From: Minisyncoccota bacterium | Lineage (GTDB): Bacteria; Patescibacteriota; Minisyncoccia; UBA6257; JAGOQP01 | Assembly (NCBI GenBank): GCA_041674185.1 | Contig: JBAYWE010000002.1 | Coordinates: forward strand, 2,233-66,232 | Direction of reading: 5' to 3' | DNA length: 64,000 nt | Notes under the pieces: generated by a model | What the model saw: only the letters and a program-made list of their open reading frames with translations | Database searches by the model: none | What the model was told of the DNA's origin: nothing | Part shown: in pieces, positions 13,433 through 40,227 of the stretch | Layout of the letters: each line of letters opens with the position of its first letter | How positions within the stretch are numbered: the stretch's first letter is position 1 | Made by a program: the position numbers and the translations under genes

Positions 13433-13472
13433 AATACGTCTGTTTACTTGGGTACAAATAATACCGTTTAAA

Positions 13473-23453: not shown

Positions 23454-24248
23454 ATGATCCCCTACTTTGGTGGTAAATCATATTTGGCGGATTGGGTGAT
23501 TTCTCATTTCCCAGAGAACTATAAAAACTTATCCTATTGTGAAGTATTTGGAGGAGGAGGGTGGGTGCTCTATAAAAAAGAACCTAGTCGCATTGAAACA
23601 TATAATGATCTCAATAAAAATATTGTTAATCTGTTTCGAGTCATTCGAGATCGTTTTCCTGAATTTAATCATCGAGCGAATTGGTCGTTACACAGCAGAG
23701 AGTTATTTCAAGAAGCGAAAGCAAAATTACAAGATGATAAAACACTAAGTGATATTGAACGAGCAATTCATTACTCAATTCTACAAACACAATCATTCTC
23801 CGGAGATGGTCATTCATGGACATATCGTGTATCTCCCAGTCATGTGTTTTCTGGAAAATGGTTGCCTCTGTTGAAACGACTTGAGTTAATCAATATTCGA
23901 TTGAAGCGTGTGCAAATCGAATGTCTTGATTTTGAAAAAGTAATTCAAAAATATGATTCCAAAGACACACTCTTTTATCTTGATCCTCCATACTTCGGGA
24001 AAGAAAAATATTATCAGAAAGAAGAGGTCTATTTCGGAAATGAAGATCATATACGATTAGCAACTACGCTCCACAATATCAAAGGAAAATTTCTTCTCAG
24101 TTATTATGATCATCCCAAAATCAAAAAGCTATATCGTGGAAATCGTATTGTGCAAAAATGCATTCCTAAGTATGGATCTAAAAGTAAATTGGTAGAAGCG
24201 ATTGCTACAAAACCACGAGCGAAAGAAATACTTATTATGAATTACTAA
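23454..24248 (+). CDS. DNA adenine methyltransferase (Dam/D12 class, orphan)
   Basis: PYFGGKSYL, EVFGGGGWV and DPPY motifs. Confidence 0.8.
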   Translation: MIPYFGGKSYLADWVISHFPENYKNLSYCEVFGGGGWVLYKKEPSRIETYNDLNKNIVNLFRVIRDRFPEFNHRANWSLHSRELFQEAKAKLQDDKTLSDIERAIHYSILQTQSFSGDGHSWTYRVSPSHVFSGKWLPLLKRLELINIRLKRVQIECLDFEKVIQKYDSKDTLFYLDPPYFGKEKYYQKEEVYFGNEDHIRLATTLHNIKGKFLLSYYDHPKIKKLYRGNRIVQKCIPKYGSKSKLVEAIATKPRAKEILIMNY

Positions 24249-25719: not shown

Positions 25720-28700
25720 ATGCAGTATGAATTGATTGAAGAATTAACAAAGCAATTTTACGAATGGGAACAACGGGGAAGAGGTTGGGATTTATGGAGC
25801 TTTCCCGTTGATCCTGAACCACCGTTTATTCCGTTCTATTATCACAGCGCAGAGAAAGTCGTGCAGATTGATGATGGACGAAAACCAACACTTCTCAGTT
25901 CATTTGCCGATACATTAAAACGTGTATTACTTCCAAGTGAATCTCAAGATGCTCATAAGAATCAAACAATTGAATATCGAAAAGAAATTTTACCACAACC
26001 ATTCACCCGCAGTGATGATATTCAGGAAATAAAAATTGTATTACCGCACGACTATAAGATGGATGCAGAATATCTTGAGCAGTGTATTCTTGGCATTACT
26101 CTTCATACATCTTTGATCAGTTTCGAAATAGTAGGATCGTATGAATCCATAACCATCCAGTTTGCTTGTTGTGCACATGACACAATACATCTTTCTCAAC
26201 AACTCAAAGCATACTTTCCTGAATACACACTCTCAGTATCTGAGAATTCATTTTATGATACATTTTTCCCAGATGAAAATGATGATGTTGCGGTAATCGA
26301 TTATGGATTGTCTGAAGAATTTATGAGACCAATTCGTGTGTATGATTCTTTTGACCCCGATCCTCTCACCGGAATAATTGGAGTATTAGATAATCTACAA
26401 GAAGGAGAAACTGCGCTCTTACAAATACTTTTTACTCCAGTAGAAGCTCCATGGTCTTCAAGTATCATGCGATCAGTTATGACCAGTTCAGGAGATTCTT
26501 TTTTTGCCGATGCCCCGGAAATGGTAAAACTTGCTCATGAAAAATGTAAGTCCCCTCTCTTTGCAGTTAACATGAGAGTATTAGGAAAAGGAATAAATCA
26601 ACATCGTTCATGGGAAATTGTTAAAGCTGTATCAAGTTGTTTGAGTTCATATACACTGCCGCAAAGCAATGAGTTAATTCCTCTCACAAATCAGGATTAT
26701 AATCCTATTGCGCACTATGAAGATGTTATCTTACGGCGAACGAGACGAAGTGGGATGATTCTCAATAGTGAAGAGTTGATATCACTCGCTCATTTTCCAT
26801 CTGCATCTATAGTTTCTAAAAAACTTCGAGGGCAAAATCAAAAAAGTATTCTCGCACCTAATACCTTAGCTGGACATGACTATATACTTGGTGAAAATAT
26901 TCATAGTGGAACGTCACATGAAGTATCACTGAGTCATGAGCAACGATTGCGACACATCCATATTATTGGAGCTACCGGCACCGGAAAATCGACTCTGTTA
27001 CGATCACTCATCACACAAGATATAGAACGTGGACTTGGCATAACGGTATTAGATCCTCATGGAGATTTAATAGAATCGATTCTTGAGCAGATACCAGAAG
27101 AGCGTTTTGAAGATGTGATTGTATTTGATCCTAGTGACGAAATGCATCCGATTGGATTTAACATTCTCGAAGCAAAAACTGAAGTTGAAAAAAATGTATT
27201 ATCATCTGATCTGGTTGAGATATTCAAAAGATTTTCTACCAGTTGGGGTGATCAAATGAGTGTGGTTTTAGGGAATGCTATTTCAGCATTTCTGGAAAAC
27301 TCACGTATTGGTTCATTGATGGATTTACGAAGATTCCTAATCGAGAAAGATTTTCGTGAGGAATTTTTGCGTGATGTTTCGGATGATCATGTCATCTACT
27401 TTTGGGAAAAAGAATATCCCCTCTTACGCGGATCGGCATTAAGCTCAATCCTCACACGACTTGATTTTTTCTTGCGCCCTAAGCTGATAAGAAATATTGT
27501 CTCTCAAACGAAAGGAATTGATCTTAAAGAAATTGTTGATCATAAAAAAATACTTTTAGTAAAACTTGCTCAAGGAATTATTGGTGATGAGAACGCCTAT
27601 CTGTTAGGATCATTGCTCGTATCAAAACTACACCAAGTCGTTATGCAACGGCAATTACAAAATAGCCATGAACGCACACCCTTTTATTTATACATAGATG
27701 AGTTTCAAAACTTTATTACGCCATCCATGAAAGCGATGTTATCCGGTGCAAGAAAATATCATATGGGACTAATCCTTGCGCATCAAGATTTACATCAGTT
27801 ATCGGAAACGGATACCGGGCTTGCTAATTCCATTATATCAAACGCAGGAACGCGCATTTGTTTTCGTGTCGGTGATTTTGATGCGCAGAAATTAGAAAGT
27901 GGATTTGCACATTTTGATTCAAACGATTTACAAAATCTGAGCATTGGTGAGGCAATCGTTCGTGTTGAGCGATCTGATTATGATTTTAATCTAAAAACAT
28001 TTTTACCAAGCTTGAAAAATACCGAAGAAGCGCACAGAACTAAGCAAGCAATCATCGATCTTTCCAGAAAAAAATATGGTGGAGTTCCTGCTGTAATTGA
28101 ACGAACAAAACAGGAACCACAAATATATTCCATACCGCAGACATCGATAAAGAAAGATGTCCCTAAAAAAGAACCTATTGAAATCCCGAAACGGAGTAAT
28201 GATACAATTCGAACTCAGAGCGAAGATCAAAAGAGCATCACCTATCATAGATATTTACAAACATTAATAAAACGATTAGCGGAACAGAGAGGATATAAAG
28301 CTGTTGTTGAAGAACAGACAATTGACAAACTTGGACGTGTTGATGTTGGACTTGAGCGAGATGATGAAAAAATCGCATGTGAAATTTCTGTAACCACAAA
28401 TGATGATCACGAGATAAAAAATATTGAAAAGTGTTTTCAATCAGGGTACCAGAAAGTATTATTCTGCTCACCAGAAAAGAAGCGTCTTGATTCAATAAGG
28501 AAATTGATAGTTGAAAAGTTAGAATCAGTATTATGTGAAAAGGTATTTTTCTTTTTGCCTGATGAATTGGTTTTGTTCTTTGAGAATGAAACTATAGGTA
28601 AGGTCAAACAGCAAAGTGAAAATATCGTGAAAGGATACAGAGTAAAGGTGGAATACAAAACTATTTCCGAAGCTCAAAAAAAAGAGAAACAGGAAGTAGT

Positions 28701-28749
28701 AAGTGGAGTTGTCGTTAATGCGCTGAGAAGATTGAAGGGAGAAAAATAA
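25720..28749 (+). CDS. large P-loop NTPase (DUF87/TraD-VirD4/HerA-like) with unknown N-terminal domain and C-terminal nuclease-like domain
   Basis: Walker A HIIGATGTGKST and a DPHGDL motif, with Walker B at LYIDEFQNF. Paralogous to the ORF at 38893-40227. The C-terminal GRVDVGLERDDEKIACEIS region is PD-(D/E)xK-like (weak). Confidence 0.6.
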   Translation: MQYELIEELTKQFYEWEQRGRGWDLWSFPVDPEPPFIPFYYHSAEKVVQIDDGRKPTLLSSFADTLKRVLLPSESQDAHKNQTIEYRKEILPQPFTRSDDIQEIKIVLPHDYKMDAEYLEQCILGITLHTSLISFEIVGSYESITIQFACCAHDTIHLSQQLKAYFPEYTLSVSENSFYDTFFPDENDDVAVIDYGLSEEFMRPIRVYDSFDPDPLTGIIGVLDNLQEGETALLQILFTPVEAPWSSSIMRSVMTSSGDSFFADAPEMVKLAHEKCKSPLFAVNMRVLGKGINQHRSWEIVKAVSSCLSSYTLPQSNELIPLTNQDYNPIAHYEDVILRRTRRSGMILNSEELISLAHFPSASIVSKKLRGQNQKSILAPNTLAGHDYILGENIHSGTSHEVSLSHEQRLRHIHIIGATGTGKSTLLRSLITQDIERGLGITVLDPHGDLIESILEQIPEERFEDVIVFDPSDEMHPIGFNILEAKTEVEKNVLSSDLVEIFKRFSTSWGDQMSVVLGNAISAFLENSRIGSLMDLRRFLIEKDFREEFLRDVSDDHVIYFWEKEYPLLRGSALSSILTRLDFFLRPKLIRNIVSQTKGIDLKEIVDHKKILLVKLAQGIIGDENAYLLGSLLVSKLHQVVMQRQLQNSHERTPFYLYIDEFQNFITPSMKAMLSGARKYHMGLILAHQDLHQLSETDTGLANSIISNAGTRICFRVGDFDAQKLESGFAHFDSNDLQNLSIGEAIVRVERSDYDFNLKTFLPSLKNTEEAHRTKQAIIDLSRKKYGGVPAVIERTKQEPQIYSIPQTSIKKDVPKKEPIEIPKRSNDTIRTQSEDQKSITYHRYLQTLIKRLAEQRGYKAVVEEQTIDKLGRVDVGLERDDEKIACEISVTTNDDHEIKNIEKCFQSGYQKVLFCSPEKKRLDSIRKLIVEKLESVLCEKVFFFLPDELVLFFENETIGKVKQQSENIVKGYRVKVEYKTISEAQKKEKQEVVSGVVVNALRRLKGEK

Positions 28750-28834: not shown

Positions 28835-29407
28835 TTGAAGATGGCAAAAATTAAAAAAATAAAAAGAAATCAAATATTGATTAAGAACTATGGATTATTC
28901 TGGAAAAAAGATGATGTCTTTTGGGGAAAACAAAGAGCTACAGGTAGACTATTAGGAATACTTGCTGGAGCAAAAAGATCTGACACAGTTGATTTCAGAA
29001 ATCAGGTTGGAATTTATGTGCTCTATGCTGATTATAAGATTGTTTATATAGGTCAAGCAGGAAATGGAAATGCAAAACTTTTCGCTCGTTTAAAAAATCA
29101 TTCACGTGATGATCTTGCTGGTAGATGGAATCAATTTTCATGGTTTGGTTTAAACTGGGTTACAAAGCAGCATAAATTATCAAGTGATATAGCTCGTCTT
29201 TTCCCAAAAACGCTCTCCGTGCTCAATCATATAGAAGCAATATTAATTCATGCAAGTGAACCCCCTCTTAATCGGCAAGGGGGAAGATGGGGAAAGGAAG
29301 TTCAGAGATATCTTCAGTATAGAGATGCCGAATTACTTGGAAAATCAGAAACAGAACTGTTAAAAGAAATTCACAAGAAAATAAAAAATATTGGGACAGC
29401 ATCTTGA
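28835..29407 (+). CDS. GIY-YIG nuclease domain protein
   Basis: GIYVLYADYKIVYIGQAGN followed by R...H and N residues, a GIY-x10-YIG pattern. Its stop overlaps the next start (ATGA). Confidence 0.55.
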   Translation: MKMAKIKKIKRNQILIKNYGLFWKKDDVFWGKQRATGRLLGILAGAKRSDTVDFRNQVGIYVLYADYKIVYIGQAGNGNAKLFARLKNHSRDDLAGRWNQFSWFGLNWVTKQHKLSSDIARLFPKTLSVLNHIEAILIHASEPPLNRQGGRWGKEVQRYLQYRDAELLGKSETELLKEIHKKIKNIGTAS

Positions 29408-30330
29408 AAGAAATTATAATCGACATCGGCGACAGCACTAGAAATGAATTGAGATGGTTGGCGTTTTATCGTTCTCTAGAATCCAAATCTATCAAAAAAG
29501 GTAAGCAGGTAATTATTGATTTTGAAAACGTCACGTTTATTATACCTTTCTGTTTGCTTGGTCTGTTAGCATTTATTAAATCTACATTTGAGATCACTCA
29601 AAAAAAAGTTAAGCTAATAAATATTTCTTCAGATAAAACAATATACCAATACATGGAAAGGGTAGATTTTTTTAAGTACACAAAAAAATATTGTACCATT
29701 ATTGGTGATTATACTGATGTAAAATTGTGGGAACGAGATAATGAAGCTAAAAAGGTGCATGGAATTATTGAGGTAGAAAAAGATCCAAATAAGAGTGCTA
29801 AAAAAGTAGCACTAATCATTGATGACCTACAGAACAGATATAAACATATTCTTGATTTCTTTTCTACAAATCATAAAAACGCAAACATCTTCTTTACTAT
29901 ATTATCTGAGATTACTGCCAATATTCCCGATCATAGTAATTCAAATGGATACTTATTGATACAGAGATGGGAGAGTCAAGCTAAAGGAAAAATTTTCACT
30001 AGTCTTTCTATCATTGATACAGGTATTGGAATAAGAAGAAGTCTTCAAAAACAAATAAAGACTCGTAATAGGAAGCTTCCTAAAAATCTTGATGGTGATT
30101 CTGATTTTTTAAGATATGCTTTTAGTGAAGAAGGTACTCGAAGTGGAGCGGGACTACATAGTGTTGTCCGATCTCTTCACGAATGGAACGCAAACGATAC
30201 TGCCTTATTGGTTCTTTCTGGTAGTGGCATTATGTACAAACCCCAAGGATCTTGTGACATAACATTCATCGAAGAAGAACACTACTTTCAGGGTACCCAT
30301 GCAACAATTTGGTTTTATGGAGATATTTAA
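29404..30330 (+). CDS. STAS-like N-terminal domain fused to GHKL (histidine-kinase-like) ATPase
   Basis: N box EITANIPDH, D box IIDTGIGI and G2 box SGAGLH. The N-terminal IIDFENVTFIIPFCLL segment resembles STAS. Confidence 0.6.
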   Translation: MKEIIIDIGDSTRNELRWLAFYRSLESKSIKKGKQVIIDFENVTFIIPFCLLGLLAFIKSTFEITQKKVKLINISSDKTIYQYMERVDFFKYTKKYCTIIGDYTDVKLWERDNEAKKVHGIIEVEKDPNKSAKKVALIIDDLQNRYKHILDFFSTNHKNANIFFTILSEITANIPDHSNSNGYLLIQRWESQAKGKIFTSLSIIDTGIGIRRSLQKQIKTRNRKLPKNLDGDSDFLRYAFSEEGTRSGAGLHSVVRSLHEWNANDTALLVLSGSGIMYKPQGSCDITFIEEEHYFQGTHATIWFYGDI

Positions 30331-30371
30331 ACTTGACAATCATTTCTAGAATACCTACCTTTAAGTAGAAG

Positions 30372-30974
30372 ATGCTTAAGGGTATGTTAAAAAGACAAAA
30401 CAAAATAGAGATTTATCAGGTAGCCCAAAAAGCGGGATGGAAAACTCCAAACACTTTAATTTGGAGAGAGCCCGCACAAAAAATGAGACCTGAATTTGTA
30501 AAGCGATTATATAAAGAAAACGAGACAGTGTGCGAATTAGATTTTTCAGGAATTGAGACGGCAGATGGTTCTTTTATTGATGAGTTTCTTGTGACTGAAT
30601 TAAAAAGCATGGACGCTGGTAAGGTAAGTAAAAAAGCAATTTATCTTTCCAATCTGAATGATGTTGTTTTATACAACGTCGAATTAGTCTTTACAAAAAA
30701 GCGTCCAGCTGGAGAAAAATTTTATATGATGTTTCGTAAAGCAGATGGAACTTGGGAACTGTTTTCAGAAGGAATTGAAGCATCATTAAAAGAAACATTA
30801 GAGTATATAATGATAAAAAAAGAACTAACCTCTAACGATGTTTCTAAGAAATTTAACATCAGTGTTCCGGCTGCTTCGGTAAGATTGAAAAACTTATTTG
30901 ATATGAGAATCGTAGACAGGAAAGACGAAACAACATCGACAGGAAAGGAATTTGTGTATGAATCTCTCTTTTGA
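30372..30974 (+). CDS. STAS-like (DUF4325-type) domain fused to C-terminal winged HTH
   Basis: LDFSGIETADGSFIDEFL resembles the anti-sigma-antagonist STAS core. The C-terminal region is HTH-like. Confidence 0.5.
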   Translation: MLKGMLKRQNKIEIYQVAQKAGWKTPNTLIWREPAQKMRPEFVKRLYKENETVCELDFSGIETADGSFIDEFLVTELKSMDAGKVSKKAIYLSNLNDVVLYNVELVFTKKRPAGEKFYMMFRKADGTWELFSEGIEASLKETLEYIMIKKELTSNDVSKKFNISVPAASVRLKNLFDMRIVDRKDETTSTGKEFVYESLF

Positions 30975-31099
30975 TTTTTTTTGCCCTACTCTTAAGTATA
31001 ATTTGCTTAAGAGGTATTGGAAAATTTTTTACATAGCAGTTAAGCAAAAATAGCTTATAGGTAATTCACTTAATAATCATAAAAGAAAGGAGAAATCCG

Positions 31100-31627
31100 A
31101 TGAACGATTCAAATGAAGTAAACAAAAATCAAAATGAACAGAAAACTCATCCTGATCATTTGAAAAAAGAAATTGATGAGCTTGAACAAAAAGCTGAGAA
31201 GCTCGAAGAGGTAGCAGACCAATTTGAGAATGATGCTGAAAAACTTCATGAAGAAGCACACAAACTTGAAGAGAAGGCAGAGCAGCTTGAGAAAAAAGCA
31301 CATCAACTGGAAAAGGAAGCTGATAAACTTGAAGATAGAGCAGAAGAGCTCGAAGAAAAAGTTGAGCAGCTAGAGCATGAAGAAGAGCATAAGGAATTTA
31401 CTATTTCTGTGAATGGGAGAATGAAAACCGTTCAGGGTAAAACAATTTCGTATGATCAAATTGTTTTTCTTGCCTCTGGAAACCCAAATCCTGATCCAAA
31501 TATTATTTATACCATTAATTACAGTAAGGGTCCCAAACAAAATCCTAAGGGCTCAATGTCACAAGGCGATATTGTTAAACTAAAAGAAGGAATGATATTC
31601 AATGCTACCCCAAGTAATAAGTCTTAG
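31100..31627 (+). CDS. coiled-coil + multiubiquitin (Mub) beta-grasp domain protein
   Basis: N-terminal EKxEELE heptad-rich segment. The C-terminal ~80 aa (FTISVNGRMKTV...IVKLKEGMIFNATP) match the bacterial multiubiquitin domain pattern. Overlaps the downstream E1 gene. Confidence 0.6.
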   Translation: MNDSNEVNKNQNEQKTHPDHLKKEIDELEQKAEKLEEVADQFENDAEKLHEEAHKLEEKAEQLEKKAHQLEKEADKLEDRAEELEEKVEQLEHEEEHKEFTISVNGRMKTVQGKTISYDQIVFLASGNPNPDPNIIYTINYSKGPKQNPKGSMSQGDIVKLKEGMIFNATPSNKS

Positions 31628-32777
31628 TCCCGACCTTAAACAATTGTGGGATGAAGGTTTTGAATTAGAGGTCAAACATGGCTATCTATTAGTGCACAAT
31701 GTCCCCTATGTTACTTCCTCAAAACAAATTAAAAGTGGAACCCTCGTGTCAACACTTGATCTTGCGGGCGAAGTAACCAATAACCCTCAAACACACGTAA
31801 TCTATTTTATTGGAGAATACCCATGTCAAAAGGATGGTTCGCCCATCCTTGCGATTCAGCATCAAAACGGAGATCAGAATCTCGGGAACAAAATTGTCGT
31901 GAATTATTCGTTCTCGAATAAACCGGCGAATGGGTATCCAAACTATTATGAAAAAATAAAACGCTACTTCGAAATTATTTCGAACCACGCAAAATCACTT
32001 AATCCTGATGTTGAAGTAAAAAAATATGAGGTTCATCTTACTGAAGATGAGGAATCTGTATTTCATTACTCAGACACAAATTCGAGTAGAGCAAAGATTA
32101 ATGCGCTACAAGAAAAACTGGAATCACAAAAAATCGTTATTGTCGGTTTAGGAGGAACCGGATCGTATATTTTAGATTTGGTTGCAAAAACTCCTGTTAA
32201 AGAAATACATCTGTTTGACGGTGATGAATTTCTACAACATAATGCATTCCGTTCTCCTGGTGCACCATCACTCGAAAAACTTCGAGAGCGAAAAAAGAAA
32301 GTAGATTATTTTGCTGAGGTATACTCAAGGATGCACAAGGGAATCATTCCCCATGCAGAATTTATCAGCAGTGAAAACATCAATCAATTACTTGACAGTC
32401 ATTTTGTATTTCTTGCAATCGATGGTAGTCAGATAAAAAAGGAATTGATTGAATTTTGCATGAACAACAAAATTCCTTTTGTTGATGTGGGAATGGGTTT
32501 ACAGCTTGCAGATAATGAACTGGTAGGCATTGTGCGAGTCACCACAGGGCTACTCTCTAAAACAGATCATCTTGAAAAAAGAATTTCTTTTTCGGATGAA
32601 TCTGAAAACGCTTATGCAAGCAATATTCAAATAGCGGATTTGAATTCATTAAATGCGGCGTTGGCAGTCATCAAATGGAAAAAGATATTTTCTTACTATC
32701 AAGATTTAGGAAAGGAATGCAATAGTAACTATGCGATAAACACAGGAGAATTATTCAATGAAGACTTTGTCGTATGA
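31602..32777 (+). CDS. E2-like (UBC-fold) domain fused to E1-like ThiF/MoeB adenylyltransferase
   Basis: IVIVGLGGTGSYILD Rossmann motif of ThiF/E1. The N-terminal region has H-x9-C spacing (HVIYFIGEYPC) like UBC catalytic sites. Confidence 0.65.
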   Translation: MLPQVISLSPDLKQLWDEGFELEVKHGYLLVHNVPYVTSSKQIKSGTLVSTLDLAGEVTNNPQTHVIYFIGEYPCQKDGSPILAIQHQNGDQNLGNKIVVNYSFSNKPANGYPNYYEKIKRYFEIISNHAKSLNPDVEVKKYEVHLTEDEESVFHYSDTNSSRAKINALQEKLESQKIVIVGLGGTGSYILDLVAKTPVKEIHLFDGDEFLQHNAFRSPGAPSLEKLRERKKKVDYFAEVYSRMHKGIIPHAEFISSENINQLLDSHFVFLAIDGSQIKKELIEFCMNNKIPFVDVGMGLQLADNELVGIVRVTTGLLSKTDHLEKRISFSDESENAYASNIQIADLNSLNAALAVIKWKKIFSYYQDLGKECNSNYAINTGELFNEDFVV

Positions 32778-33120
32778 GTTTGTGGAATATATTCCAGACC
32801 AAATTGAAGAGGGTAAACTGTATGTTTCAATTCCTAATTGTGTGGCGATTCATAAATGTTGCTGTGGATGCCATACCGAAGTAGTTACTCCTCTATCCCC
32901 TGATGATTGGAGATTAATTTTTGATGGAGAATCTATTTCGTTATATCCCTCAATTGGTAATTGGCAATTTGCCTGTAAGTCCCACTACTGGATTAAGAAT
33001 AATACAGTTGAATGGGCTAAATCATGGGATGATACAATGGCTGAGAAGAATAGTAGTAAAAAATCTAATAAAAAAATGTTCTCGAAATTTTTAAAACATT
33101 TTTCTAAAAGAAAAAAATAA
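32758..33120 (+). CDS. DUF6527-like Cys/His-rich small protein
   Basis: CCCGCH...C...H cluster. This family recurs next to ThiF/multiubiquitin genes. Overlaps the E1 gene's 3' end. Confidence 0.5.
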   Translation: MKTLSYEFVEYIPDQIEEGKLYVSIPNCVAIHKCCCGCHTEVVTPLSPDDWRLIFDGESISLYPSIGNWQFACKSHYWIKNNTVEWAKSWDDTMAEKNSSKKSNKKMFSKFLKHFSKRKK

Positions 33121-33191
33121 AACAAACGTTCTTCACAATTAATTTAATTCATTTTACTAATCGGTTATACCATGATGAACAGTATAACCGA

Positions 33192-35147
33192 TTAAATATC
33201 ATCAGTTTTTGTAGAACTTGATTGTGGCTTGTTAGATAAATCACGTAGAGTCTTTCGCCAGAAAAACACTTGATCCTTCTTAACTCTTAAATACTTCGTA
33301 GAATTCTTTTCTATTCGACCCAAAGTTGATGGATCCACTCCTAATTTCAATGCCATTTCTTTCTGGCTTAAGCCACGAATCTTTCTATAAGAGATCAGTT
33401 TTTCACCCAGTGTCTTATTAGGAAAAACTTCTGGAGTATATCCTAAAAACTCTATGATTTTGGGTATGTACTTAACCGTAGGATTACTCAGATTCTTTTC
33501 CCAGTTATAGATACTGGTTTCTTCGACACCTATAATACAGGCAACATCCTTCTGAAATAGATTTTGCTCTAGTCTCCGTTTTCTTATATGTTCCCCTAAG
33601 GATTGTGGATTTTTAGGAATATTTGATGGTTTTTGAGCTGTTAGTACCAACTTGCAGATTGGCAACGCAGGTATGAAGTTGTGTTGCCTTTCTGTCATCA
33701 ATTTCTCCCCAGCGGAAGCATACTGAAGCTGTATAGAAACCTCATTTTGTCCAATATTGATTCTTTCTGTAATAGTCTCAATAATCTTACGTTTTTCATC
33801 AGAATTAAATGTTTCCCACCGATTATATAGATCCTTCGCTTCGCGAAGTATTTCATCACTAGAAAGAAACTGAATCTTGAGAAAGTCTATTTCAGCTTGT
33901 AACTCCGGAATCTGATTCTCCATTTGAGAGTACTGCTCATCAAGCGGTTTGTAGTAGGTACCAAATCCATCTTTGGGTAACTCCCCTGCCATATGGAGTT
34001 GTACCAATTTGTCCATATCAGATTTTATCTTGGATTGTTTTTTAAGCAGGGTGGAGAGTAGTTCTTCTTTCTCTCTAATAGATTGATCGGCGGTGTTGAG
34101 GTACTGCACCATCTCAGTTGGAGAAAGTAAAAAACTTTTTAGTTGTTCATGGAAAATTGATTCCAGATCAGACGTTCCAATTTTGTTATGACATTTCTGA
34201 CAAGTGTATTTGGGTGAGTTGGATGGAACATACATCTTCGTATCACATTCACAAAATACAAACCCGGTAAATAGATGGACTGCTTTTTTAGCTGGCTTAT
34301 GATTACTTTTTTGTTGCTCATCTAAAATCGCGTTGCATTGATTCCATATATCCTCAGAAACGATTGGTTCTATTTCTATAAATACCCAATCTGAGGGGGG
34401 CTTTAATTCCCATTTTTTATTTTCTCCTAAGCTCTTGGTATAGTTTGCACGCCTTACTCCTTTTGCACTTGGGTCTTGCAGTAAACGAGTTACGGTCGTA
34501 TCACTGAACTTAGAACCATTGCGTGTTCGATACCCTGATTCATTCAGAATACGGGCAACAGTTTTTTTACGTTGATGTTCAATGAATAATTCATAGAGCA
34601 GTTTTCTGATCGGAGCTTCTTTAAGATCGGGAATTAATTTTTTATCAAGCCACTGATATCCAAAGGGTGCTTGGCCTCCTAACGGCTTTCCCATTTTTGC
34701 TCGAACTGGAACTGATGCAGCAACTCGTTCAGCAATTTCTTCCCGTTCCCACTGAGCCATCGCCGCAATCATCGTATAAAATAATCTTCCCGCCGGAGTT
34801 GAGGTATCAATCGATTCTTGTAGAGAAATAAGATCGGCATTGTACTTTCTAAATATCTCTGCAAATTCTAAAAGTTCTTTTGTGTTTCTTGCTAAGCGAG
34901 CAAGTTTAGAAAATATAATTCCTGTAATTTTTCCTGACTTGATATCTGAAAGCATCCGTTGGGTTTCGGGATGTTCCATGACTGACTTACCACTAACGGC
35001 TTCAAGCTTATATACTTCTTTTATATCCCACTCTTTTGATTCTGCATAATAACGAGCGCGTCTCTCATGGTGTTCGGGGCTTTCTCCTTTAACCTGATCT
35101 TCAGTTGAAACACGAATCCAAATACCTATTGATTTATTTTCACCCAT
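33192..35147 (-). CDS. large serine recombinase with C-terminal tandem XRE-type HTH domains
   Basis: N-terminal IGIWIRVSTEDQ resolvase catalytic domain, then recombinase/zinc-ribbon domains. The C-terminal ~130 aa carry two XRE HTHs (LGEHIRKRRLEQNLFQKDVA and LGEKLISYRKIRGLSQKEMA). Confidence 0.85.
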   Translation of the reverse strand: MGENKSIGIWIRVSTEDQVKGESPEHHERRARYYAESKEWDIKEVYKLEAVSGKSVMEHPETQRMLSDIKSGKITGIIFSKLARLARNTKELLEFAEIFRKYNADLISLQESIDTSTPAGRLFYTMIAAMAQWEREEIAERVAASVPVRAKMGKPLGGQAPFGYQWLDKKLIPDLKEAPIRKLLYELFIEHQRKKTVARILNESGYRTRNGSKFSDTTVTRLLQDPSAKGVRRANYTKSLGENKKWELKPPSDWVFIEIEPIVSEDIWNQCNAILDEQQKSNHKPAKKAVHLFTGFVFCECDTKMYVPSNSPKYTCQKCHNKIGTSDLESIFHEQLKSFLLSPTEMVQYLNTADQSIREKEELLSTLLKKQSKIKSDMDKLVQLHMAGELPKDGFGTYYKPLDEQYSQMENQIPELQAEIDFLKIQFLSSDEILREAKDLYNRWETFNSDEKRKIIETITERINIGQNEVSIQLQYASAGEKLMTERQHNFIPALPICKLVLTAQKPSNIPKNPQSLGEHIRKRRLEQNLFQKDVACIIGVEETSIYNWEKNLSNPTVKYIPKIIEFLGYTPEVFPNKTLGEKLISYRKIRGLSQKEMALKLGVDPSTLGRIEKNSTKYLRVKKDQVFFWRKTLRDLSNKPQSSSTKTDDI

Positions 35148-35552: not shown

Positions 35553-36605
35553 TTATTTGTCTAAGTCAGCAAAAACGTGTGAATATTTTTCCCAGATGTT
35601 TCTACTAATATGCCATGCATGTGCATGCTTTGCATATCCATACCATGAAGCACGTGATGTTTGTATTTTCTGAGCAGTAATTTTTTTCTTTAGTAGTTGT
35701 ATTACATATTTCTTAATACGCCGTTTGCATCGTTTGATCGTCGAGGTGCGTAATCGGATATAATGAGGAAAGAGTATATATCCCAAAAAGGGAACACCCG
35801 TCGTGATAGGTGATATAAATACTTTATGGGGATGTATCGTTAAAAGTAAGCGTTCTGTTAAAAATGTCTGCATGGCATCGCGTATATCATGTAATCTTTG
35901 TTTGTCCTCAGAGCAAATTACAATATCATCCATATAGCGGATATAGTACCGACAATACAATCGTTCTTTCGCATAGTGATCAAGTTCATTGAGGTAGATA
36001 TTAGCAAATAATTGACTGGTCAGATTGCCAATAGGTATACCCTTTTTTCTTCCCCCTTTGTTTGAATCATAACTACTATCAATAATGAGTCTCAGAAGAT
36101 TGCGTATATCCACATCATCAATTACGCGAATTAACAGTGCATATAAAATTTCATGATCAATACTTTGAAAATATTTAGAAATATCTAGTTTAAGAAAATA
36201 CGCCCTGCGCGTATATCCATGACTCACCCCATACATAAATTTTTTCAATCGTCGAATAGCACGGTGTGTTCCTTTTTGTTTTCTACACACATACGAATCA
36301 TAAATGAATCGCTTTTCAAAGAGAGGTTCAATATGTGCACACACCACATGATGCACAATACGATCACTAAAGGGAGCGGCACGAATTAATCGTTTCTTAG
36401 AATCACACACGATAAATTCTCGATACGTGCCGTGATAATATGTTTTGGTAGAAAGCGCATGTAATAAGTATCCCAAATTATATTCAAGACATTGTTCAAA
36501 TCTCACTACACAGCGTTTCTGTCGTCGCAATTTTCGCGCACGACAATACGCATAATAGAGTTCAGAAAAGGAACAAAGCGATTGATACATATCATAGATA
36601 TCCAC
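35553..36605 (-). CDS. diversity-generating retroelement reverse transcriptase
   Basis: RT motifs include YMDD (RYMDDIVI). The DGR-specific IGxxxSQ signature (IPIGNLTSQLFANIYL) replaces the group II intron QGxxSP. The 350-aa size is typical of DGR RTs. Confidence 0.9.
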   Translation of the reverse strand: MDIYDMYQSLCSFSELYYAYCRARKLRRQKRCVVRFEQCLEYNLGYLLHALSTKTYYHGTYREFIVCDSKKRLIRAAPFSDRIVHHVVCAHIEPLFEKRFIYDSYVCRKQKGTHRAIRRLKKFMYGVSHGYTRRAYFLKLDISKYFQSIDHEILYALLIRVIDDVDIRNLLRLIIDSSYDSNKGGRKKGIPIGNLTSQLFANIYLNELDHYAKERLYCRYYIRYMDDIVICSEDKQRLHDIRDAMQTFLTERLLLTIHPHKVFISPITTGVPFLGYILFPHYIRLRTSTIKRCKRRIKKYVIQLLKKKITAQKIQTSRASWYGYAKHAHAWHISRNIWEKYSHVFADLDK

Positions 36606-36775
36606 GGGCGCATGGCTTTCCTCGTACAGAGAATTCTATACGAGGAAATCTTATAGCAAACATGTTGCGATAAGTATATGCGCATATATTCCCTTGCGGG
36701 ACAGAACAAAGCCAGTAGTCATCATGACACAGTTGTATATTCCGTAGAATATATATTCGGGCCACTTATAAAAAT

Positions 36776-36900
36776 AATGATGTATACCGAGCGCACCGGA
36801 ATCCAATGTTGTTGTTCGTATTGCCTGGGGTATTGTTCAGATTGAGTGTCTCTACACCAGCGTTCGTGTCATTGTTCCAATTCCCACCACGAAGGAAGCC
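36776..36900 (-). repeat. DGR template repeat (TR)
   Basis: 125-bp near-copy of 37381-37505. About 22 of the mismatches fall where TR has A on the coding (minus) strand, i.e. T on the plus strand. Confidence 0.9.
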
Positions 36901-36973
36901 CGCCTTCATTCCGGTTTTAAATGCGGCATTATCCTGCTTCTGATAATAGATAATTCATACGATCAGAAGCATA

Positions 36974-37309
36974 TTATAAAAATCGTTTGGTAAGTCCTTG
37001 CCAGATACGTCCAAGTTCATTTAGTTTTTCCGCACTTACACCATACTGTCGTATAGAAATAAAACGTAAATCTTTTGCGAGGCGCATATATAATTGCAAC
37101 GTATCAAAATGTAAGCTGATAGATGCGATGCATTCTTTTTTTGTTTTTGATATTTGAAATCGCATCATGGTTTGTAATAACGCGAGGCATTCCGATTCAA
37201 TATGTTGTCCTAATACAAATCGCTGGTTTTTAGGAAACTTGCCGACGAGCGGAAATACCCACACAAAGTATGCATACGCTTTTTGAAACAACAATAAATC
37301 TTCAATCAT
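36974..37309 (-). CDS. avd: DGR accessory variability determinant (Avd, four-helix-bundle protein)
   Basis: 111 aa. FQKAYAYFVWVFPLVGKFPKNQRFVLGQ resembles Avd / 23S-IVS four-helix-bundle proteins. Lies between the target gene and the TR. Confidence 0.8.
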   Translation of the reverse strand: MIEDLLLFQKAYAYFVWVFPLVGKFPKNQRFVLGQHIESECLALLQTMMRFQISKTKKECIASISLHFDTLQLYMRLAKDLRFISIRQYGVSAEKLNELGRIWQGLTKRFL

Positions 37310-37380
37310 ATGATGATCGTAAAAAATGCGGGGATAGATTTTTAGATAGCTAGATTGCTACGGTTCATTTCGCTATGCGA

Positions 37381-37505
37381 AATGATGACTACCGAGCGCA
37401 CCGGAACCCAACGGCGTTGCCCGTACTGCCAGGGGCACCGTACAGAAGGAGTGTCTCTACACCAGCGTGCGTGCCATCGCCCCAACCCCCACCACGAAGG
37501 AAGCC
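37381..37505 (-). repeat. DGR variable repeat (VR) at 3' end of target gene
   Basis: Matches TR except at TR-adenine positions. Encodes the C-terminal ...VYGFLRGGGWGDGTHAGVETLLLYGAPGSTGNAVGFRCAR segment. Confidence 0.9.
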
Positions 37506-38804
37506 GTACACAGTGGCATTGCTTGATCCATCAGAATAGATACGACCGATTCCTTGAGTAGCACTCCATGCGCTATTATAGGGACCAGCAGTTTGTTGAG
37601 TCATAGTTCCCCATGTGGTAATAGCAGTAAATTCTCTCCAGTTAAAACCAGGAGTGGAACCCGTAGGTTGATTCGTTCCTGTAATAGTGTCATTCGTCCA
37701 CTCCCACACATTTCCTGCTATGTCCCATAACACACTGCCATTAGAAAGCGTGTGAGTGCGGAGATGGGTGAAATCGGTATAACCGGTGCCGTATTGAGAA
37801 GAACCATCCTGAGCAGCAGATGAGTTTGAGTTGCCTCTTCCTAGGTAATTGGTACCCACAACTCCGCCATACCAGTTGATGGGTTGTTGTTGTATGTTCC
37901 AAGCGATAGTTTGCCATTCTGCATTGGTAATGAGATGTGCGCCAATAGATGCGCAATATGTTGCGGCTGTAGTTTGAGAAATGTTTGCAATCGGATAGCC
38001 AGCAGACGTAGAGGCAGGGGTAAGCGGAGAAACACAGGGAGTCGTATTATTTGCGTAGGTGTTATATCCCGTGTTGGGTGTAGTTAGAGGCGTATTACCA
38101 GAAACACACTTGGCTTCGTATTGCATGACATAGAAATCTGAGGTACCAAAGGTTGTATTACCAGGAACTTTAGCCCAACCAGAGGGAAAGACACCTTGTG
38201 CTAACGTAAGATCAGTACCAGCTTCAAAGGCAGTAGCACTAGTACCTCCATCCGCTTGTGCTCTCGGTATGTATTTAACTGATTCTGCAACAGCAGTTAC
38301 TTCATAGGTTTGAGCTGAGGGATTGGGAACATACGTATAATATAATCCCGTGGATGAGGAGTTGGTCGGATCAATAGGAAGTTTGGAAAGATTTTGAATT
38401 CCCGAAGCAGTGAAGTCTATGGGAATCCACCCAGTCCCATTGGTGAGAGTGGATGATGCAGTAGGAACACATTTATATCCATATCCCGAAGGGAGTGCGG
38501 GAAGTCCCCAACTTGCACAGGTAGCAGAGGTATCAGGCAATGAAACATACACCGTTGAAGCAGTACCTAAAGAAACCTGAGGATTTTGGGTGAGTAATAA
38601 CTGTATAGTTTTATGCATAGATGCCACATCGGTCATACGAGTAGAATCTCTTCCTTGTCTGAGAAGTTCGGTAGGATTGAGAACAATGACTACTGCGGCA
38701 GTTAAAATAGCTAAGATACCAATGACGATAAGAAGCTCAATAAGTGTAAATGCTTTCTTCAAAGGAGAAGGCTTAAAACAAAAGCCGGTGCGTTTAGTAT
38801 TCAT
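37389..38804 (-). CDS. DGR target protein: type IV pilin-like N-terminus + C-type lectin/FGE-like C-terminal domain bearing VR
   Basis: N-terminal KAFTLIELLIVIGILAILTA is a prepilin-type methylation motif. C-terminal GNVWEWT...GFRCAR is CLec/FGE-like. Confidence 0.85.
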   Translation of the reverse strand: MNTKRTGFCFKPSPLKKAFTLIELLIVIGILAILTAAVVIVLNPTELLRQGRDSTRMTDVASMHKTIQLLLTQNPQVSLGTASTVYVSLPDTSATCASWGLPALPSGYGYKCVPTASSTLTNGTGWIPIDFTASGIQNLSKLPIDPTNSSSTGLYYTYVPNPSAQTYEVTAVAESVKYIPRAQADGGTSATAFEAGTDLTLAQGVFPSGWAKVPGNTTFGTSDFYVMQYEAKCVSGNTPLTTPNTGYNTYANNTTPCVSPLTPASTSAGYPIANISQTTAATYCASIGAHLITNAEWQTIAWNIQQQPINWYGGVVGTNYLGRGNSNSSAAQDGSSQYGTGYTDFTHLRTHTLSNGSVLWDIAGNVWEWTNDTITGTNQPTGSTPGFNWREFTAITTWGTMTQQTAGPYNSAWSATQGIGRIYSDGSSNATVYGFLRGGGWGDGTHAGVETLLLYGAPGSTGNAVGFRCAR

Positions 38805-38892: not shown

Positions 38893-40227
38893 TTAGCAGA
38901 AAAGTTTTCTTTGGTGAGAATCGCTTTTAGCGGTGTGAATATTTTTTGTTTGAATTTCTGTCTCAATCTGTTTTAGGTGTTTCGCATATTGCATTCGAGA
39001 ATGATCAACAATTTCATCTTTACACGAATTGAGAATATGGGGCAACGGAAGTGTAACTCCACTAAAGGGGACAGATGTAATTCCATCAATCATGAGCTTG
39101 ATACAAATGTTGTAATTAGGAAGATTGATTAGATCATTGATGTTAAACGTAGGTTCAAATTCTTTCTCTAAGAAGTGTGCATCATCAACCCCAACTCGAA
39201 AAGAAATCATTGTGCCTACATTTCCAAATACCGCATCTCGTATTTGATCGGGAAGTTGTTTTACATATTGATGTGCTAAGACTAAATTGAGTCCATACTT
39301 TCGTGCTTCGGAAAGAATATTTGCAAAGGAGAGTGTCATAAAATTATGAAACTCATCAACATAAAAATAAAACGGTTTTCTCTGATCTTCTGAAACATTC
39401 GCTCGACTCATCGCTGCTAAAAATATCATCGTCGTTATCATCGATCCTAAGAGTGAGCTAGTATCTTCACCAACTTTTCCTTTTGATAAATTCACAATGA
39501 GAATTTTTCCCTGATCCATAATCTCCCGAAATCGGAAACTATTTTTTACCTGTCCTACAATATTTCGTAAGGGAAGATTGGTGAGAAACTGACTCATCTT
39601 ATTGAGTATCGGCGCTATTGCTTCAGCACGAAAGTGAGGTGAATATTTATCAAATTCATTTGTCCAAAAGGTGCGTATTTGATCTTGTGTGCAAAATGAT
39701 AACACATGCTTTCTAAACTCAGCATTGGTTAAGAGTGTGGGAACATCGAGTAACGTTCCGTGTGGATATTCTAATAAAGTATAAAAAGAATAACGTAAAA
39801 TATGTTCAAGTCGTGGGCCCCAAAATTCTGAATATATTTTTTTGAAAACAGAAATCAATCCAGACACCACGAGATAATGAGAGCCAAGAGAAACATGAGC
39901 GAGTGGATTAAACGCAATCGGATATTCACTATCACTTGGATTAAAATAAATTACATCATTGATTCTTTCTTTGGGTATATGTGATAACAACGTTTCTGCT
40001 AAATCTCCATGCGGATCAATGATTGCTAGACCATTACCTTGATTGATATCTGCAATTGCCATTTGAGCGAGTAAACTTGATTTACCTGTTCCGGTTTTTC
40101 CCACGATATACATATGACCGCGTCGATTCTTTTCTTTGATGCCAAACTTCTTCCTGATATCTCGCCAATTAGTTAAGGCAATGGGTGTGATTGATTGTGC
40201 TTCGTGTTGTGTGTGTTCCATATGCAT
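38893..40227 (-). CDS. P-loop NTPase (DUF87/TraD-VirD4/HerA-like), short paralog
   Basis: Walker A YIVGKTGTGKSS and a DPHGDL motif, with Walker B at FYFYVDEFHNF. Shares these motifs with 25720-28749. Confidence 0.65.
   Translation of the reverse strand: MHMEHTQHEAQSITPIALTNWRDIRKKFGIKEKNRRGHMYIVGKTGTGKSSLLAQMAIADINQGNGLAIIDPHGDLAETLLSHIPKERINDVIYFNPSDSEYPIAFNPLAHVSLGSHYLVVSGLISVFKKIYSEFWGPRLEHILRYSFYTLLEYPHGTLLDVPTLLTNAEFRKHVLSFCTQDQIRTFWTNEFDKYSPHFRAEAIAPILNKMSQFLTNLPLRNIVGQVKNSFRFREIMDQGKILIVNLSKGKVGEDTSSLLGSMITTMIFLAAMSRANVSEDQRKPFYFYVDEFHNFMTLSFANILSEARKYGLNLVLAHQYVKQLPDQIRDAVFGNVGTMISFRVGVDDAHFLEKEFEPTFNINDLINLPNYNICIKLMIDGITSVPFSGVTLPLPHILNSCKDEIVDHSRMQYAKHLKQIETEIQTKNIHTAKSDSHQRKLFC

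What the first reader, a model, noticed from the sequence alone, without database searches (positions are those of the whole stretch)
31100..33120. Ubiquitin-like conjugation operon: multiubiquitin-domain protein, fused E2-like/E1 (ThiF) and DUF6527, with no JAB deubiquitinase
A 175-aa protein combines an N-terminal coiled coil with a C-terminal bacterial multiubiquitin beta-grasp domain. It overlaps a 391-aa protein whose C-terminal half is a ThiF/MoeB E1-like Rossmann domain (GLGGTGS). That protein's N-terminal half has H-x9-C spacing (HVIYFIGEYPC) like UBC E2 active sites. A small Cys/His-rich DUF6527-like ORF follows, also overlapping. Such operons were predicted computationally (Iyer, Burroughs and Aravind, 2006) and related Ubl/E1/E2 operons (Bil/Bub) were shown in 2024 to be antiphage. 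This instance differs in three ways. The Ubl does not end in Gly-Gly (it ends ...ATPSNKS). No JAB/DUB gene is present. It lies directly after the GHKL/STAS/nuclease trio and directly before a serine recombinase. The targets and the role of the Cys-rich partner are unknown.
Basis: partly seen in the sequence, partly recalled or inferred. Interest (0 to 1): 0.8.

Follow-up and report, generated by a model that had tools for sequence, protein, structure and literature searches.

The report
Type II Bub ubiquitin-like operon with CapK/CapS
This is an intact copy of an already described bacterial ubiquitin-like conjugation system (a Type II "Bub" operon) with its published DNA-damage-sensing regulator pair, so it is a new example of a known system.

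Summary
The three overlapping genes exist exactly as described, and the domain calls are right: Multi_ubiq, DUF6791+ThiF, DUF6527. Together they form a textbook Type II Bub (formerly "6E.2/DUF6527") operon as defined by Ye, Gong, Chambers and Corbett (bioRxiv 2024): bubA (Ubl), bubBD (E2-E1 fusion), bubE (DUF6527).

- Type II Bub has no JAB. BubE is the Zn-dependent Ser/His protease that removes conjugates.
- All 79 BubA orthologues I collected, plus the crystallised E. coli BubA, end in Ser and not Gly.
- The upstream GHKL and STAS genes are the published CapK/CapS regulators. TTAA-type operator palindromes sit at the two expected places.

C75 is replaced in 23 of 151 diverse relatives, while S105, H65 and the E1 residues R217 and Y338 are invariant. 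This fits the published oxyester (Tyr then Ser) relay.

The five-gene cassette capK-capS-bubA-bubBD-bubE recurs at 92% identity in another MAG, within a variable cargo slot of an integrative island.

Verdict: a new member of a known kind, of low to moderate interest.

The parts
29404..30330 (+). capK candidate: STAS + GHKL kinase (308 aa, TTG start)
   Evidence: Weak Pfam hits to HATPase_c (aa 163-263) and STAS-like DUF4325. The GHKL motifs are invariant in its family: E169/N173/H177, D205-x-G-x-G209 and G248-x-G250-L. It lies directly upstream of capS and is co-inherited with it in L002 and L017.
30360..30380 (.). Putative CapS operator 1 (TTTAAG-N9-CTTAAG) at the capK-capS junction, overlapping the capS ATG
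   Evidence: One of only two matches in 64 kb, with 0.2 expected by chance. The location corresponds to ChIP peak 1 of the CapS paper.
30372..30974 (+). capS: STAS-wHTH repressor (200 aa), with phospho-acceptor candidate S67
   Evidence: Matches PDB 9z72 (V. cholerae CapS) at 1.2e-11 and 9z71 (E. roggenkampii CapS) at 2.7e-4. S67 is invariant in the motif LDFSGIETADGSFIDE.
30989..31013 (.). Putative CapS operator 2 and bub promoter: CTCTTAAG-TATAATTTG-CTTAAGAG, with TATAAT at 30997-31002
   Evidence: Perfect 8-bp inverted repeat (I3). The TTAA half-sites wrap a -10-like box, as in the published wide palindrome. The sequence was read directly.
31100..31627 (+). bubA: CC-Ubl1 ubiquitin-like protein. 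Coiled coil at about aa 20-95 (nine A/L heptads), beta-grasp at aa 98-175, C-terminal Ser175. AAGGAG ribosome-binding site at 31087-31092.
   Evidence: Pfam Multi_ubiq 3.7e-16. End-to-end alignment to E. coli ZDHYS365 BubA, PDB 9cd2, at 2.3e-13. C-terminal Ser in 79/79 orthologues. Heptads shown.
31602..32096 (+). bubBD N-terminal E2 domain (DUF6791, aa 1-165). Catalytic candidates are S105 with H65 and K107/K118.
32097..32777 (+). bubBD C-terminal E1 adenylation domain (ThiF fold). GLGGTGS at aa 182-188, R217, and crossover-loop Y338. There is no Cys in the loop.
32758..33120 (+). bubE: DUF6527 Zn-binding Ser/His protease (120 aa). Zn ligands C34/C36/C38/C73, catalytic dyad S65/H76, and a basic amphipathic C-terminal tail.
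   Evidence: Pfam DUF6527 1.6e-24; a newer Pfam release labels PF20137 'BubE'. All six residues are conserved in 79/79 orthologues. Their spacing matches Citrobacter C57/C59/C61/C99 and S92/H102.

Best explanation
Window 29404-33120 holds a five-gene cassette, capK-capS-bubA-bubBD-bubE. [quoted passage not shown] The mechanism below is inferred by homology to the characterised E. coli, Citrobacter and Enterobacter systems.

1. **Repression.** In unstressed cells a CapS dimer sits on TTAA-type palindromes at the capK-capS junction and over the -10 box in front of bubA, and it represses transcription.
2. **Induction.** Single-stranded DNA from DNA damage or phage infection activates the GHKL kinase CapK. 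CapK phosphorylates CapS at S67, the dimer falls apart and the bub genes are expressed.
3. **Activation of BubA.** The E1 half of a BubBD dimer adenylates the C-terminal carboxylate of BubA (Ser175), using GLGGTGS and R217. It then takes BubA onto crossover-loop Tyr338 as an oxyester.
4. **Conjugation.** BubA passes to Ser105 of the E2 half, assisted by H65 and K107/K118, probably in the opposite protomer. From there it goes to lysines of targets that are still unknown.
5. **Deconjugation.** BubE, a C4-zinc Ser65/His76 protease, cleaves BubA conjugates. It fills the deubiquitinase role that JAB enzymes have in Bil, CBASS and Type I Bub.

The coiled-coil N-terminus of this BubA probably makes it a dimer or trimer.

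**Shown here:** gene architecture, folds, every catalytic residue, the operator-like sites, and cassette co-inheritance.
**Inferred:** all the chemistry, the induction signal, and the biological output (presumed antiphage or stress defence).
For: **Family definition.** The definitions of Type II Bub and of BubE function come from bioRxiv 10.1101/2024.11.21.623953.

**The three Bub proteins.**
- Pfam finds Multi_ubiq, DUF6791+ThiF and DUF6527.
- BubA aligns end to end with crystallised E. coli Type II BubA (9cd2), and both end in KS.
- 79/79 BubA orthologues end in Ser, and 66 of 79 keep the same 26-nt bubA/bubBD overlap.
- BubBD invariants are H65, S105, K118, R217 and Y338 in 81 loci. S105 is 150/150 and H65 151/151 in representatives clustered at 50% identity.
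- BubE invariants are C34/C36/C38/C73 and S65/H76.

**The regulators.**
- CapS matches the CapS crystal structures 9z72 and 9z71, and S67 is invariant.
- CapK keeps the GHKL motifs.
- The two operator-like palindromes are the only such sites in 64 kb, and they sit at the published positions.

**Cassette behaviour.**
- The five-gene block is 91.7% identical in L002, while the flanks are 69% identical or absent.
- An independent CapK/CapS+Bub pairing occurs in Evansella.
Against: - No biochemistry was done on this locus.
- CapK membership rests on weak Pfam hits (E about 3e-3), conserved motifs and position. No N-terminal HTH was detected, and there is no PDB sequence match.
- The operator half-site spacing here is TTAA-N11-TTAA at both sites. 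The published spacings are N1 (narrow) and N10 (wide).
- Equating S67 with CapS S54/S58 assumes a 1-2 residue tag offset in the crystal construct.
- An antiphage role has not been demonstrated for any Bub operon in the papers I read. It is inferred from the associated regulators.
- C75 is conserved in 85% of relatives, so a secondary role for it is not excluded.
Confidence: 0.85

Rival explanations
1. A canonical thioester cascade. The E2-like half would use C75 (H65-x9-C75, like the UBC HPN...C motif) as the catalytic cysteine, and the system would be a JAB-less variant outside the known Bub family.
For: H65 and C75 have the same spacing as HPN...Cys in UBC E2s. C75 is at least 90% conserved among the closest homologues.
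Against: - C75 is replaced by H, Y, S, F or R in 23 of 151 diverse relatives, while S105 is conserved in 150/150.
- E. coli BubBD S106A and Y342F abolish conjugation, and 6E/Bub E2s are described as lacking a conserved catalytic Cys.
- The E1 crossover loop (aa 320-345) has no Cys at all (sequence).
- The operon matches Type II Bub in every tested feature.
Confidence: 0.04
2. A sulfur-carrier or cofactor biosynthesis pair of the MoeB/ThiF-MoaD/ThiS type, or a TcdA-like tRNA modification enzyme.
Against: - NCBIfam ThiF, MoeB and TcdA models score 26-42 bits against cut-offs of 159-377. The full-length PRK06153.1-4 model scores 573 bits against a cut-off of 352.
- The partner protein is a Multi_ubiq Ubl ending in Ser, not a GG-ended MoaD or ThiS.
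- The protein is fused to an E2-fold domain and paired with BubE.
- It lies on a mobile island under a stress regulator.
Confidence: 0.01
3. The biochemistry is Bub-type conjugation, but the biological role is not antiphage defence. The operon could instead serve a DNA-damage or stress response, or the mobile element itself, for example in inter-element competition, modification of element or host proteins during excision or transfer, or addiction.
For: - No phage protection has been reported for Bub in the papers read. The companion paper itself says studies may need to look beyond antiphage immunity.
- The cassette sits in a cargo slot of an integrative island, between a TraD/VirD4-like ATPase and a serine recombinase.
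- 128 plasmids carry the triplet and no sequenced phage does.
- CapK senses ssDNA, which conjugation and excision also produce.
Against: - CapK/CapS, CapW and CapH/CapP are otherwise found with proven defence systems such as CBASS and Thoeris.
- The neighbours include an OLD-family nuclease, methyltransferases and, in L002, an R-M pair. This is typical of a defence island.
- The sister Bil system is antiphage.
Confidence: 0.2

Closest known systems
Type II Bub (6E.2 / DUF6527) operon, exemplified by E. coli ZDHYS365 BubA-BubBD-BubE (Ye, Gong, Chambers and Corbett, bioRxiv 10.1101/2024.11.21.623953; BubA structure PDB 9cd2)
   Same: - Same gene order and fusions.
- The BubA beta-grasp aligns end to end, and both proteins end in KS.
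- The E2 Ser/His/Lys, the E1 Arg and the crossover-loop Tyr are all present.
- BubE has the C4 zinc site and the Ser/His dyad.
- There is no JAB.
   Different: - BubA here is the rare CC-Ubl1 architecture (coiled coil plus one beta-grasp), not Ubl3. Only this cassette and its near-twin show it among 79 loci.
- BubBD is about 50% identical to enterobacterial and plasmid versions.
- The host is a MAG labelled Candidatus Paceibacterota.
CapK/CapS DNA-damage-responsive regulator pair (Chambers et al., EMBO J 2026, PMC13373217; CapS structures 9Z71-9Z73)
   Same: - A STAS-wHTH repressor homologous to the crystallised CapS proteins, with an invariant STAS serine.
- A STAS+GHKL kinase directly upstream of it.
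- Both genes precede a Bub operon on the same strand.
- TTAA-based palindromes lie at the capK-capS junction and over the -10 box of the downstream operon.
   Different: - The half-site spacing is N11 at both sites, not N1 and N10.
- No N-terminal HTH was detected in CapK.
- This CapK/CapS subfamily is rare: 9-10 homologues among 5.8 billion clusters by word-indexed search.
Type I Bub (Citrobacter BubAB-BubCD-BubE; PDB 9ea4, 9ea5, 9eav)
   Different: In Type I, the Ubl is fused to the E2 and is released by a JAB domain fused to the E1. Its BubA ends in Gly, and the residues that accompany the E2 serine are His+Asp rather than Lys+His.
[quoted passage not shown]
   Same: These are ubiquitin-like conjugation modules on defence islands. 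Cap2 is also an E2-E1 fusion.
   Different: Both use cysteine thioesters and a JAB peptidase. The Bil E1 has tandem adenylation domains plus a Cys domain. Cap2 conjugates a CD-NTase, not a Ubl. PADLOC E1-E2 (Cap2) models match only the E1 part here.

Membership tests
Type II Bub (6E.2) | Operon of bubA (Ubl), bubBD (E2-E1 fusion) and bubE (DUF6527), co-directional | tested here: met
   ORFs 31100-33120 overlap by 26 and 20 nt. Pfam finds Multi_ubiq, DUF6791+ThiF and DUF6527. The same triplet is present in 77 of the 80 related loci, with bubA and bubE each found in 78.
Type II Bub (6E.2) | BubA beta-grasp homologous to a characterised Type II BubA | tested here: met
   phmmer gives 2.3e-13 to PDB 9cd2 (E. 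coli ZDHYS365 BubA), aligned through to the last residue.
Type II Bub (6E.2) | E2-fold domain with an invariant Ser accompanied by invariant Lys and His, and no conserved catalytic Cys | tested here: met
Type II Bub (6E.2) | Single homodimer-type E1 adenylation domain with an ATP-site Arg and an invariant crossover-loop Tyr, with no Cys in the loop | tested here: met
Type II Bub (6E.2) | BubE with a C4 zinc site and a Ser/His dyad | tested here: met
   C34, C36, C38, C73, S65 and H76 are each 79/79. Their spacing is identical to Citrobacter C57/C59/C61/C99 and S92/H102.
Type II Bub (6E.2) | No JAB/JAMM peptidase in the operon | tested here: met
   No JAB/MPN Pfam hit in any scanned ORF of the window.
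Type II Bub (6E.2) | ATP-dependent BubA conjugation through Tyr and Ser oxyesters; BubE cleaves the conjugates | not testable with these tools
   This needs biochemistry. It is known only for the E. coli and Citrobacter proteins.
CapK/CapS regulators | CapS: STAS-wHTH protein homologous to characterised CapS, with a conserved STAS serine | tested here: met
   Matches 9z72 at 1.2e-11 and 9z71 at 2.7e-4. S67 is invariant in 11/11. Its exact equivalence to S54/S58 is inferred.
CapK/CapS regulators | CapK: HTH-STAS-GHKL kinase encoded directly upstream of capS | tested here: inconclusive
   The GHKL N, G1 and G2 motifs are invariant. Pfam hits to HATPase_c (3e-3) and STAS-like DUF4325 (6e-3) are weak. 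No HTH was detected and there is no PDB sequence match. Position and co-inheritance fit.
CapK/CapS regulators | TTAA-half-site palindromes at the capK-capS junction and over the -10 box of the downstream operon | tested here: met
   Sites at 30360-30380 and 30991-31011 are the only two matches in 64 kb, with 0.2 expected. The second wraps TATAAT. The spacing is N11, against the published N1 and N10. Binding was not tested.
Bil (Type I/II) | [quoted passage not shown] | tested here: not met
MoeB/ThiF sulfur-carrier activation | Equivalog-level match to ThiF or MoeB, with a GG-ended MoaD or ThiS partner | tested here: not met
   ThiF and MoeB NCBIfam models score 26-36 bits against cut-offs of 159-377. 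The partner is a Multi_ubiq protein ending in Ser.
Type II CBASS Cap2 | E2-E1 fusion with catalytic cysteines next to a CD-NTase and an effector | tested here: not met
   PADLOC E1-E2 models match only aa 139-294, the E1 part, with the best E-value 1.3e-8. No CD-NTase gene is nearby.

The most novel reading that the evidence does not exclude
The capK-capS-bub cassette, with its rare alanine-zipper coiled-coil BubA, is a recently exchanged cargo module that moves between integrative elements of very different hosts. One MAG is labelled Candidatus Paceibacterota (CPR) and another Bacteroidetes, and the cassettes are 92% identical. That would make this a functional ubiquitin-like conjugation system in an ultra-small CPR bacterium. 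The oligomeric coiled-coil BubA might then act as a multivalent cross-linker of its targets, instead of a simple tag.
Probability: 0.2. Interest if true: 0.45.

Novelty: new member of a known kind. Interest (0 to 1): 0.2.

Why it matters
The locus adds one intact and unusually compact example to the Bub family, whose targets and biological output are still unknown. Three points have some value for people working on Bub:
- **A natural CC-Ubl1 BubA with a very regular coiled coil.** Nine A/L heptads are fused to a single beta-grasp domain. It is handy for asking whether Ubl oligomerisation matters.
- **A clear family-wide rule.** In this clade, Type II BubA ends in Ser (T-D/N-K-S) and bubBD starts 26 nt before the bubA stop.
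- **A divergent CapK/CapS pair.** Its operators have N11 spacing at both sites, which broadens the known operator grammar.

None of this overturns the published picture, and it opens no new question beyond those already posed for Bub.

Tried and rejected
- **Supplementary tables of the Bub preprint**, to get the E. coli BubBD sequence: none are held as text. I used a Klebsiella plasmid BubBD and 230 homologues instead.
- **Sequence and profile searches of CapK against the PDB**: no meaningful hit.
- **Iterative HMM search for CapK/CapS in the 80 related loci**: only L002 and L017 were found. Other regulators such as CapW and CapH/CapP were not surveyed.
- **Tandem Repeats Finder on the coiled-coil coding region**: nothing found, so the heptads are not a recent DNA duplication.
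- **Search for an att-like repeat of tRNA-Gln** to define the island ends: none found.
- **First operator pattern with the wrong spacer (N11 between the hexamers)**: no hits. Corrected to N9.
- **PHROGs on eight unannotated island ORFs**: no hits, and no capsid, tail or portal genes seen. I therefore did not call the island a prophage.
- **tblastn of BubBD against 50,697 phage records**: no match.
- **Rejected readings**: MoeB/ThiF sulfur transfer, Cap2/CBASS, Bil, and a Cys75 thioester E2. Reasons are in the membership table.
Full report
**1. The observation**

All are on the + strand and overlap by 26 and 20 nt.

Pfam confirms every domain call:
- Multi_ubiq (3.7e-16, aa 100-171) sits behind an E/K-rich coiled coil.
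- DUF6791 (2.6e-58, aa 10-159) is fused to ThiF (1.1e-17).
- DUF6527 scores 1.6e-24.

The first protein ends ...ATPSNKS, and H65-x9-C75 exists as a string. No JAB/MPN domain appears in any of the 53 ORFs I scanned across the window. The description is therefore accurate.

**2. What it is**

The literature tool shows that this gene set has a name. Ye, Gong, Chambers and Corbett (bioRxiv 10.1101/2024.11.21.623953) renamed the "6E/DUF6527" operons Bub. They define Type II Bub (6E.2) as BubA (Ubl) + BubBD (E2-E1 fusion) + BubE (DUF6527), "typically" without a JAB peptidase. A newer Pfam release already labels PF20137 "BubE". I tested each defining feature here and did not rely on the resemblance alone.

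*BubA.*
- Its beta-grasp aligns end to end with the crystallised E. coli ZDHYS365 Type II BubA (PDB 9cd2, 2.3e-13). The two C-termini read MIFNATPSNKS and MIFYVTQTDKS.
- In 79 orthologues from 80 genomic loci found with BubBD, every BubA ends in Ser: 70 in KS, 5 in QS, 3 in RS and 1 in NS. In 66 of the 79, bubBD starts 26 nt before the bubA stop.
- A Klebsiella plasmid copy ends ...TIQS.
- The missing Gly-Gly is therefore a clade-wide rule and not a peculiarity of this locus. The preprint's main text stresses a terminal Gly only for Type I BubA.
- The coiled-coil N-terminus is nine clean heptads with Ala at position a and Leu at position d. It corresponds to the "CC-Ubl1" class that the companion paper reports in three Bub operons. 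Among my 79 loci, only this cassette and its near-twin L002 have it.

*BubBD.*
- NCBIfam places it full length in PRK06153.1-4 (573 bits, cut-off 352). ThiF, MoeB and TcdA models score far below their cut-offs.
Across 150 representatives clustered at 50% identity, C75 is present in 128 of 151 and is replaced by H, Y, S, F or R. S105 is 150/150, H65 151/151, K107 142/150 and K118 138/147.
- In the E1 half, R217 and Y338 are invariant in 81/81 loci, and the crossover loop has no Cys.
- These residues correspond to S106, R219 and Y342 of E. coli BubBD, whose mutation abolishes conjugation. They sit in the same motif contexts in a Klebsiella plasmid orthologue.

*BubE.* C34, C36, C38, C73, S65 and H76 are each conserved in 79/79 orthologues. 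Their spacing equals that of Citrobacter C57/C59/C61/C99 and S92/H102, the C4 zinc site and Ser/His dyad of a protease shown to remove BubA conjugates. The "Cys/His-rich partner of unknown role" is thus the deubiquitinase-equivalent of the system. This explains why no JAB is needed.

**3. The upstream genes are the regulator**

- The 200-aa STAS-wHTH protein (30372-30974) matches the crystal structures of V. cholerae CapS (9z72, 1.2e-11) and E. roggenkampii CapS (9z71, 2.7e-4).
- Its family has an invariant Ser67 in the motif LDFSGIETADGSFIDE. This serine aligns with the Ala-substituted stretch of the S58A crystal construct.
- The 308-aa protein before it (29404-30330) has weak STAS and HATPase_c Pfam hits and invariant GHKL N, G1 and G2 motifs. 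I call it CapK with less certainty, because no HTH was detected and the PDB gave no sequence match.
- Chambers et al. (EMBO J 2026, PMC13373217) report capK+capS upstream of 231 Bub operons. They show that ssDNA-activated CapK phosphorylates CapS, which dissociates the repressor dimer. They map CapS sites with TTAA half-sites to the capK-capS junction and to the -10 region in front of the downstream operon.
- In this window, CTTAAG-N9-CTTAAG (one mismatch allowed) occurs only twice in 64 kb, with 0.2 expected. One site is at 30360-30380 and overlaps the capS ATG. The other is at 30991-31011 inside the perfect inverted repeat CTCTTAAG-TATAATTTG-CTTAAGAG, which wraps a TATAAT box 90 nt upstream of bubA. 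The TTAA spacing is N11 at both sites, not N1 and N10.

**4. The unit of inheritance and its carrier**

- A MAG contig labelled Bacteroidetes (L002) shares window 29377-33121 at 91.7% identity. That block is exactly capK through bubE.
- The TraD/VirD4-like ATPase upstream is only 69% identical, and the GIY-YIG-like gene (28835-29407) is absent from L002.
- Downstream of bubE, L002 carries an Eco57I-like methylase, a BsuBI/PstI-type endonuclease and an IS630-like transposase before a serine-recombinase remnant. The slot is a variable cargo hotspot.
- An independent CapK/CapS+Bub pairing exists in Evansella, a Bacillota.
- In the window, housekeeping genes flank a roughly 35-kb island: RF, FtsW, MraY, MurG, ScpAB and DnaX on the left, and LMW phosphatase, MFS, ABC-F, DHODH and PGK on the right.
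- The island begins at tRNA-Gln with a serine recombinase. It carries methyltransferases, RuvC, two TraD-like ATPases, a DGR, PD-(D/E)XK nucleases and an OLD-family nuclease. I could not define att sites.
- BubBD relatives occur in the same triplet on 128 plasmids and on no sequenced phage.
- NCBI labels the source MAG Candidatus Paceibacterota. I could not verify that placement.

**5. Mechanism**

By homology, CapS represses the operon and ssDNA-activated CapK phosphorylates S67 to de-repress it. BubBD then adenylates BubA Ser175 and carries it as an oxyester on Y338, then on S105. BubA is transferred to target lysines, and BubE reverses the modification. Shown here are the architecture, the folds, all catalytic residues, the operator-like sites and cassette co-inheritance. 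The chemistry, the inducing signal and the biological role are inferred. The papers I read do not demonstrate phage protection by any Bub operon, so a non-defence stress or mobile-element role remains a live rival for the output (about 0.2). It is not a rival for the enzymology.

**6. Comparison and novelty**

The locus meets every testable defining feature of Type II Bub. It fails the defining features of Bil, of Cap2/CBASS and of MoeB/ThiF sulfur transfer. It is a new member of a known kind. Its mildly notable traits are the rare CC-Ubl1 BubA, a divergent and rare CapK/CapS subfamily (9-10 homologues by word-indexed search) with N11 operators, and a possible CPR host.

**7. Verdict**

However, the three claimed differences are family norms, the proposed Cys active site is wrong, and the roles of BubE and of the upstream genes are already published. 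Interest is 0.2.

Noticed in passing
window 35553-38804 (- strand): A complete diversity-generating retroelement lies next to the operon. It has a reverse transcriptase (35553-36605), bAvd (36974-37309) and a target gene (37389-38804) that encodes an N-terminal pilin-like N_methyl signal and a C-terminal FGE-sulfatase/CLec domain. The template repeat (36776-36900) and variable repeat (37381-37505) are 82% identical over 125 nt, and every mismatch in that repeat falls at a template adenine. That is the signature of active mutagenic retrohoming.
   Followed up: yes
window 28835-29407 (+): A 190-aa protein with a marginal GIY-YIG_2 Pfam hit (9.7e-5) and a weak PADLOC PDC-S14 hit. It sits between the TraD-like ATPase and capK, and its stop overlaps the capK start. 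It is absent from the otherwise 92%-identical cassette in L002, so it is separate cargo of unknown function.
   Followed up: partly
window 25720-28749 (+) and 38893-40227 (-): Two TrwB/TraD/VirD4/HerA-like ATPases. The 1009-aa one also matches PADLOC mad8 (4.8e-21) and phrog_5156 (5e-63), and it carries a roughly 250-aa C-terminal extension with no domain hit. No relaxase or mating-pair genes were seen, so it is unclear whether the island is conjugative or whether these are defence ATPases.
   Followed up: partly
window 11766-13495: tRNA-Gln (11766-11839, +) abuts a large serine recombinase whose longest ORF (11807-13495, -) overlaps the tRNA's 3' half. This is probably the left edge of a roughly 35-kb island with lower GC (0.31-0.34 from 12 to 20 kb). 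No direct repeat of the tRNA was found elsewhere, so the right edge, near the OLD nuclease at about 47 kb, is only inferred from gene content.
   Followed up: partly
window 33192-35147 (-): The large serine recombinase directly after bubE carries two extra C-terminal HTH_3/XRE domains (aa 516-620), which is unusual for this family. One of them also hits PADLOC capH (5.9e-9), though only as a generic XRE HTH.
   Followed up: no
whole window versus L002 (JAJYXU010000117.1): The taxonomic labels conflict. The window's MAG is labelled Candidatus Paceibacterota, while the 92%-identical cassette is in a MAG labelled Bacteroidetes. The island also encodes a T9SS Por_Secre_tail protein (19272-20519), which I recall as typical of Bacteroidota. 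On the other side, bubA has a strong AAGGAG ribosome-binding site, and a pilin-like DGR target is, by recollection, common in CPR. The cause is either cross-phylum transfer or mis-binning; I could not resolve it.
   Followed up: partly
window 45279-47003 (-), 43646-44731 (+), 40672-41511 (+), 17105-18958 (-), 23454-24248 (+): Other defence-like cargo on the island: an OLD-family AAA_15+TOPRIM nuclease, PDDEXK_4 and PDDEXK_1/Cas4-like nucleases, a fused D12+N6_N4 DNA methyltransferase, and a Dam-like methyltransferase next to an Endonuclease_NS protein.
   Followed up: no
L063 (Hymenobacter saemangeumensis) 4535-5026: The BubA of this locus has an 88-aa N/G/S-rich low-complexity N-terminal tail. 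It is the same odd architecture the companion paper reports for a Hymenobacter coccineus Type II Bil Ubl and for two Bub Ubls.
   Followed up: no
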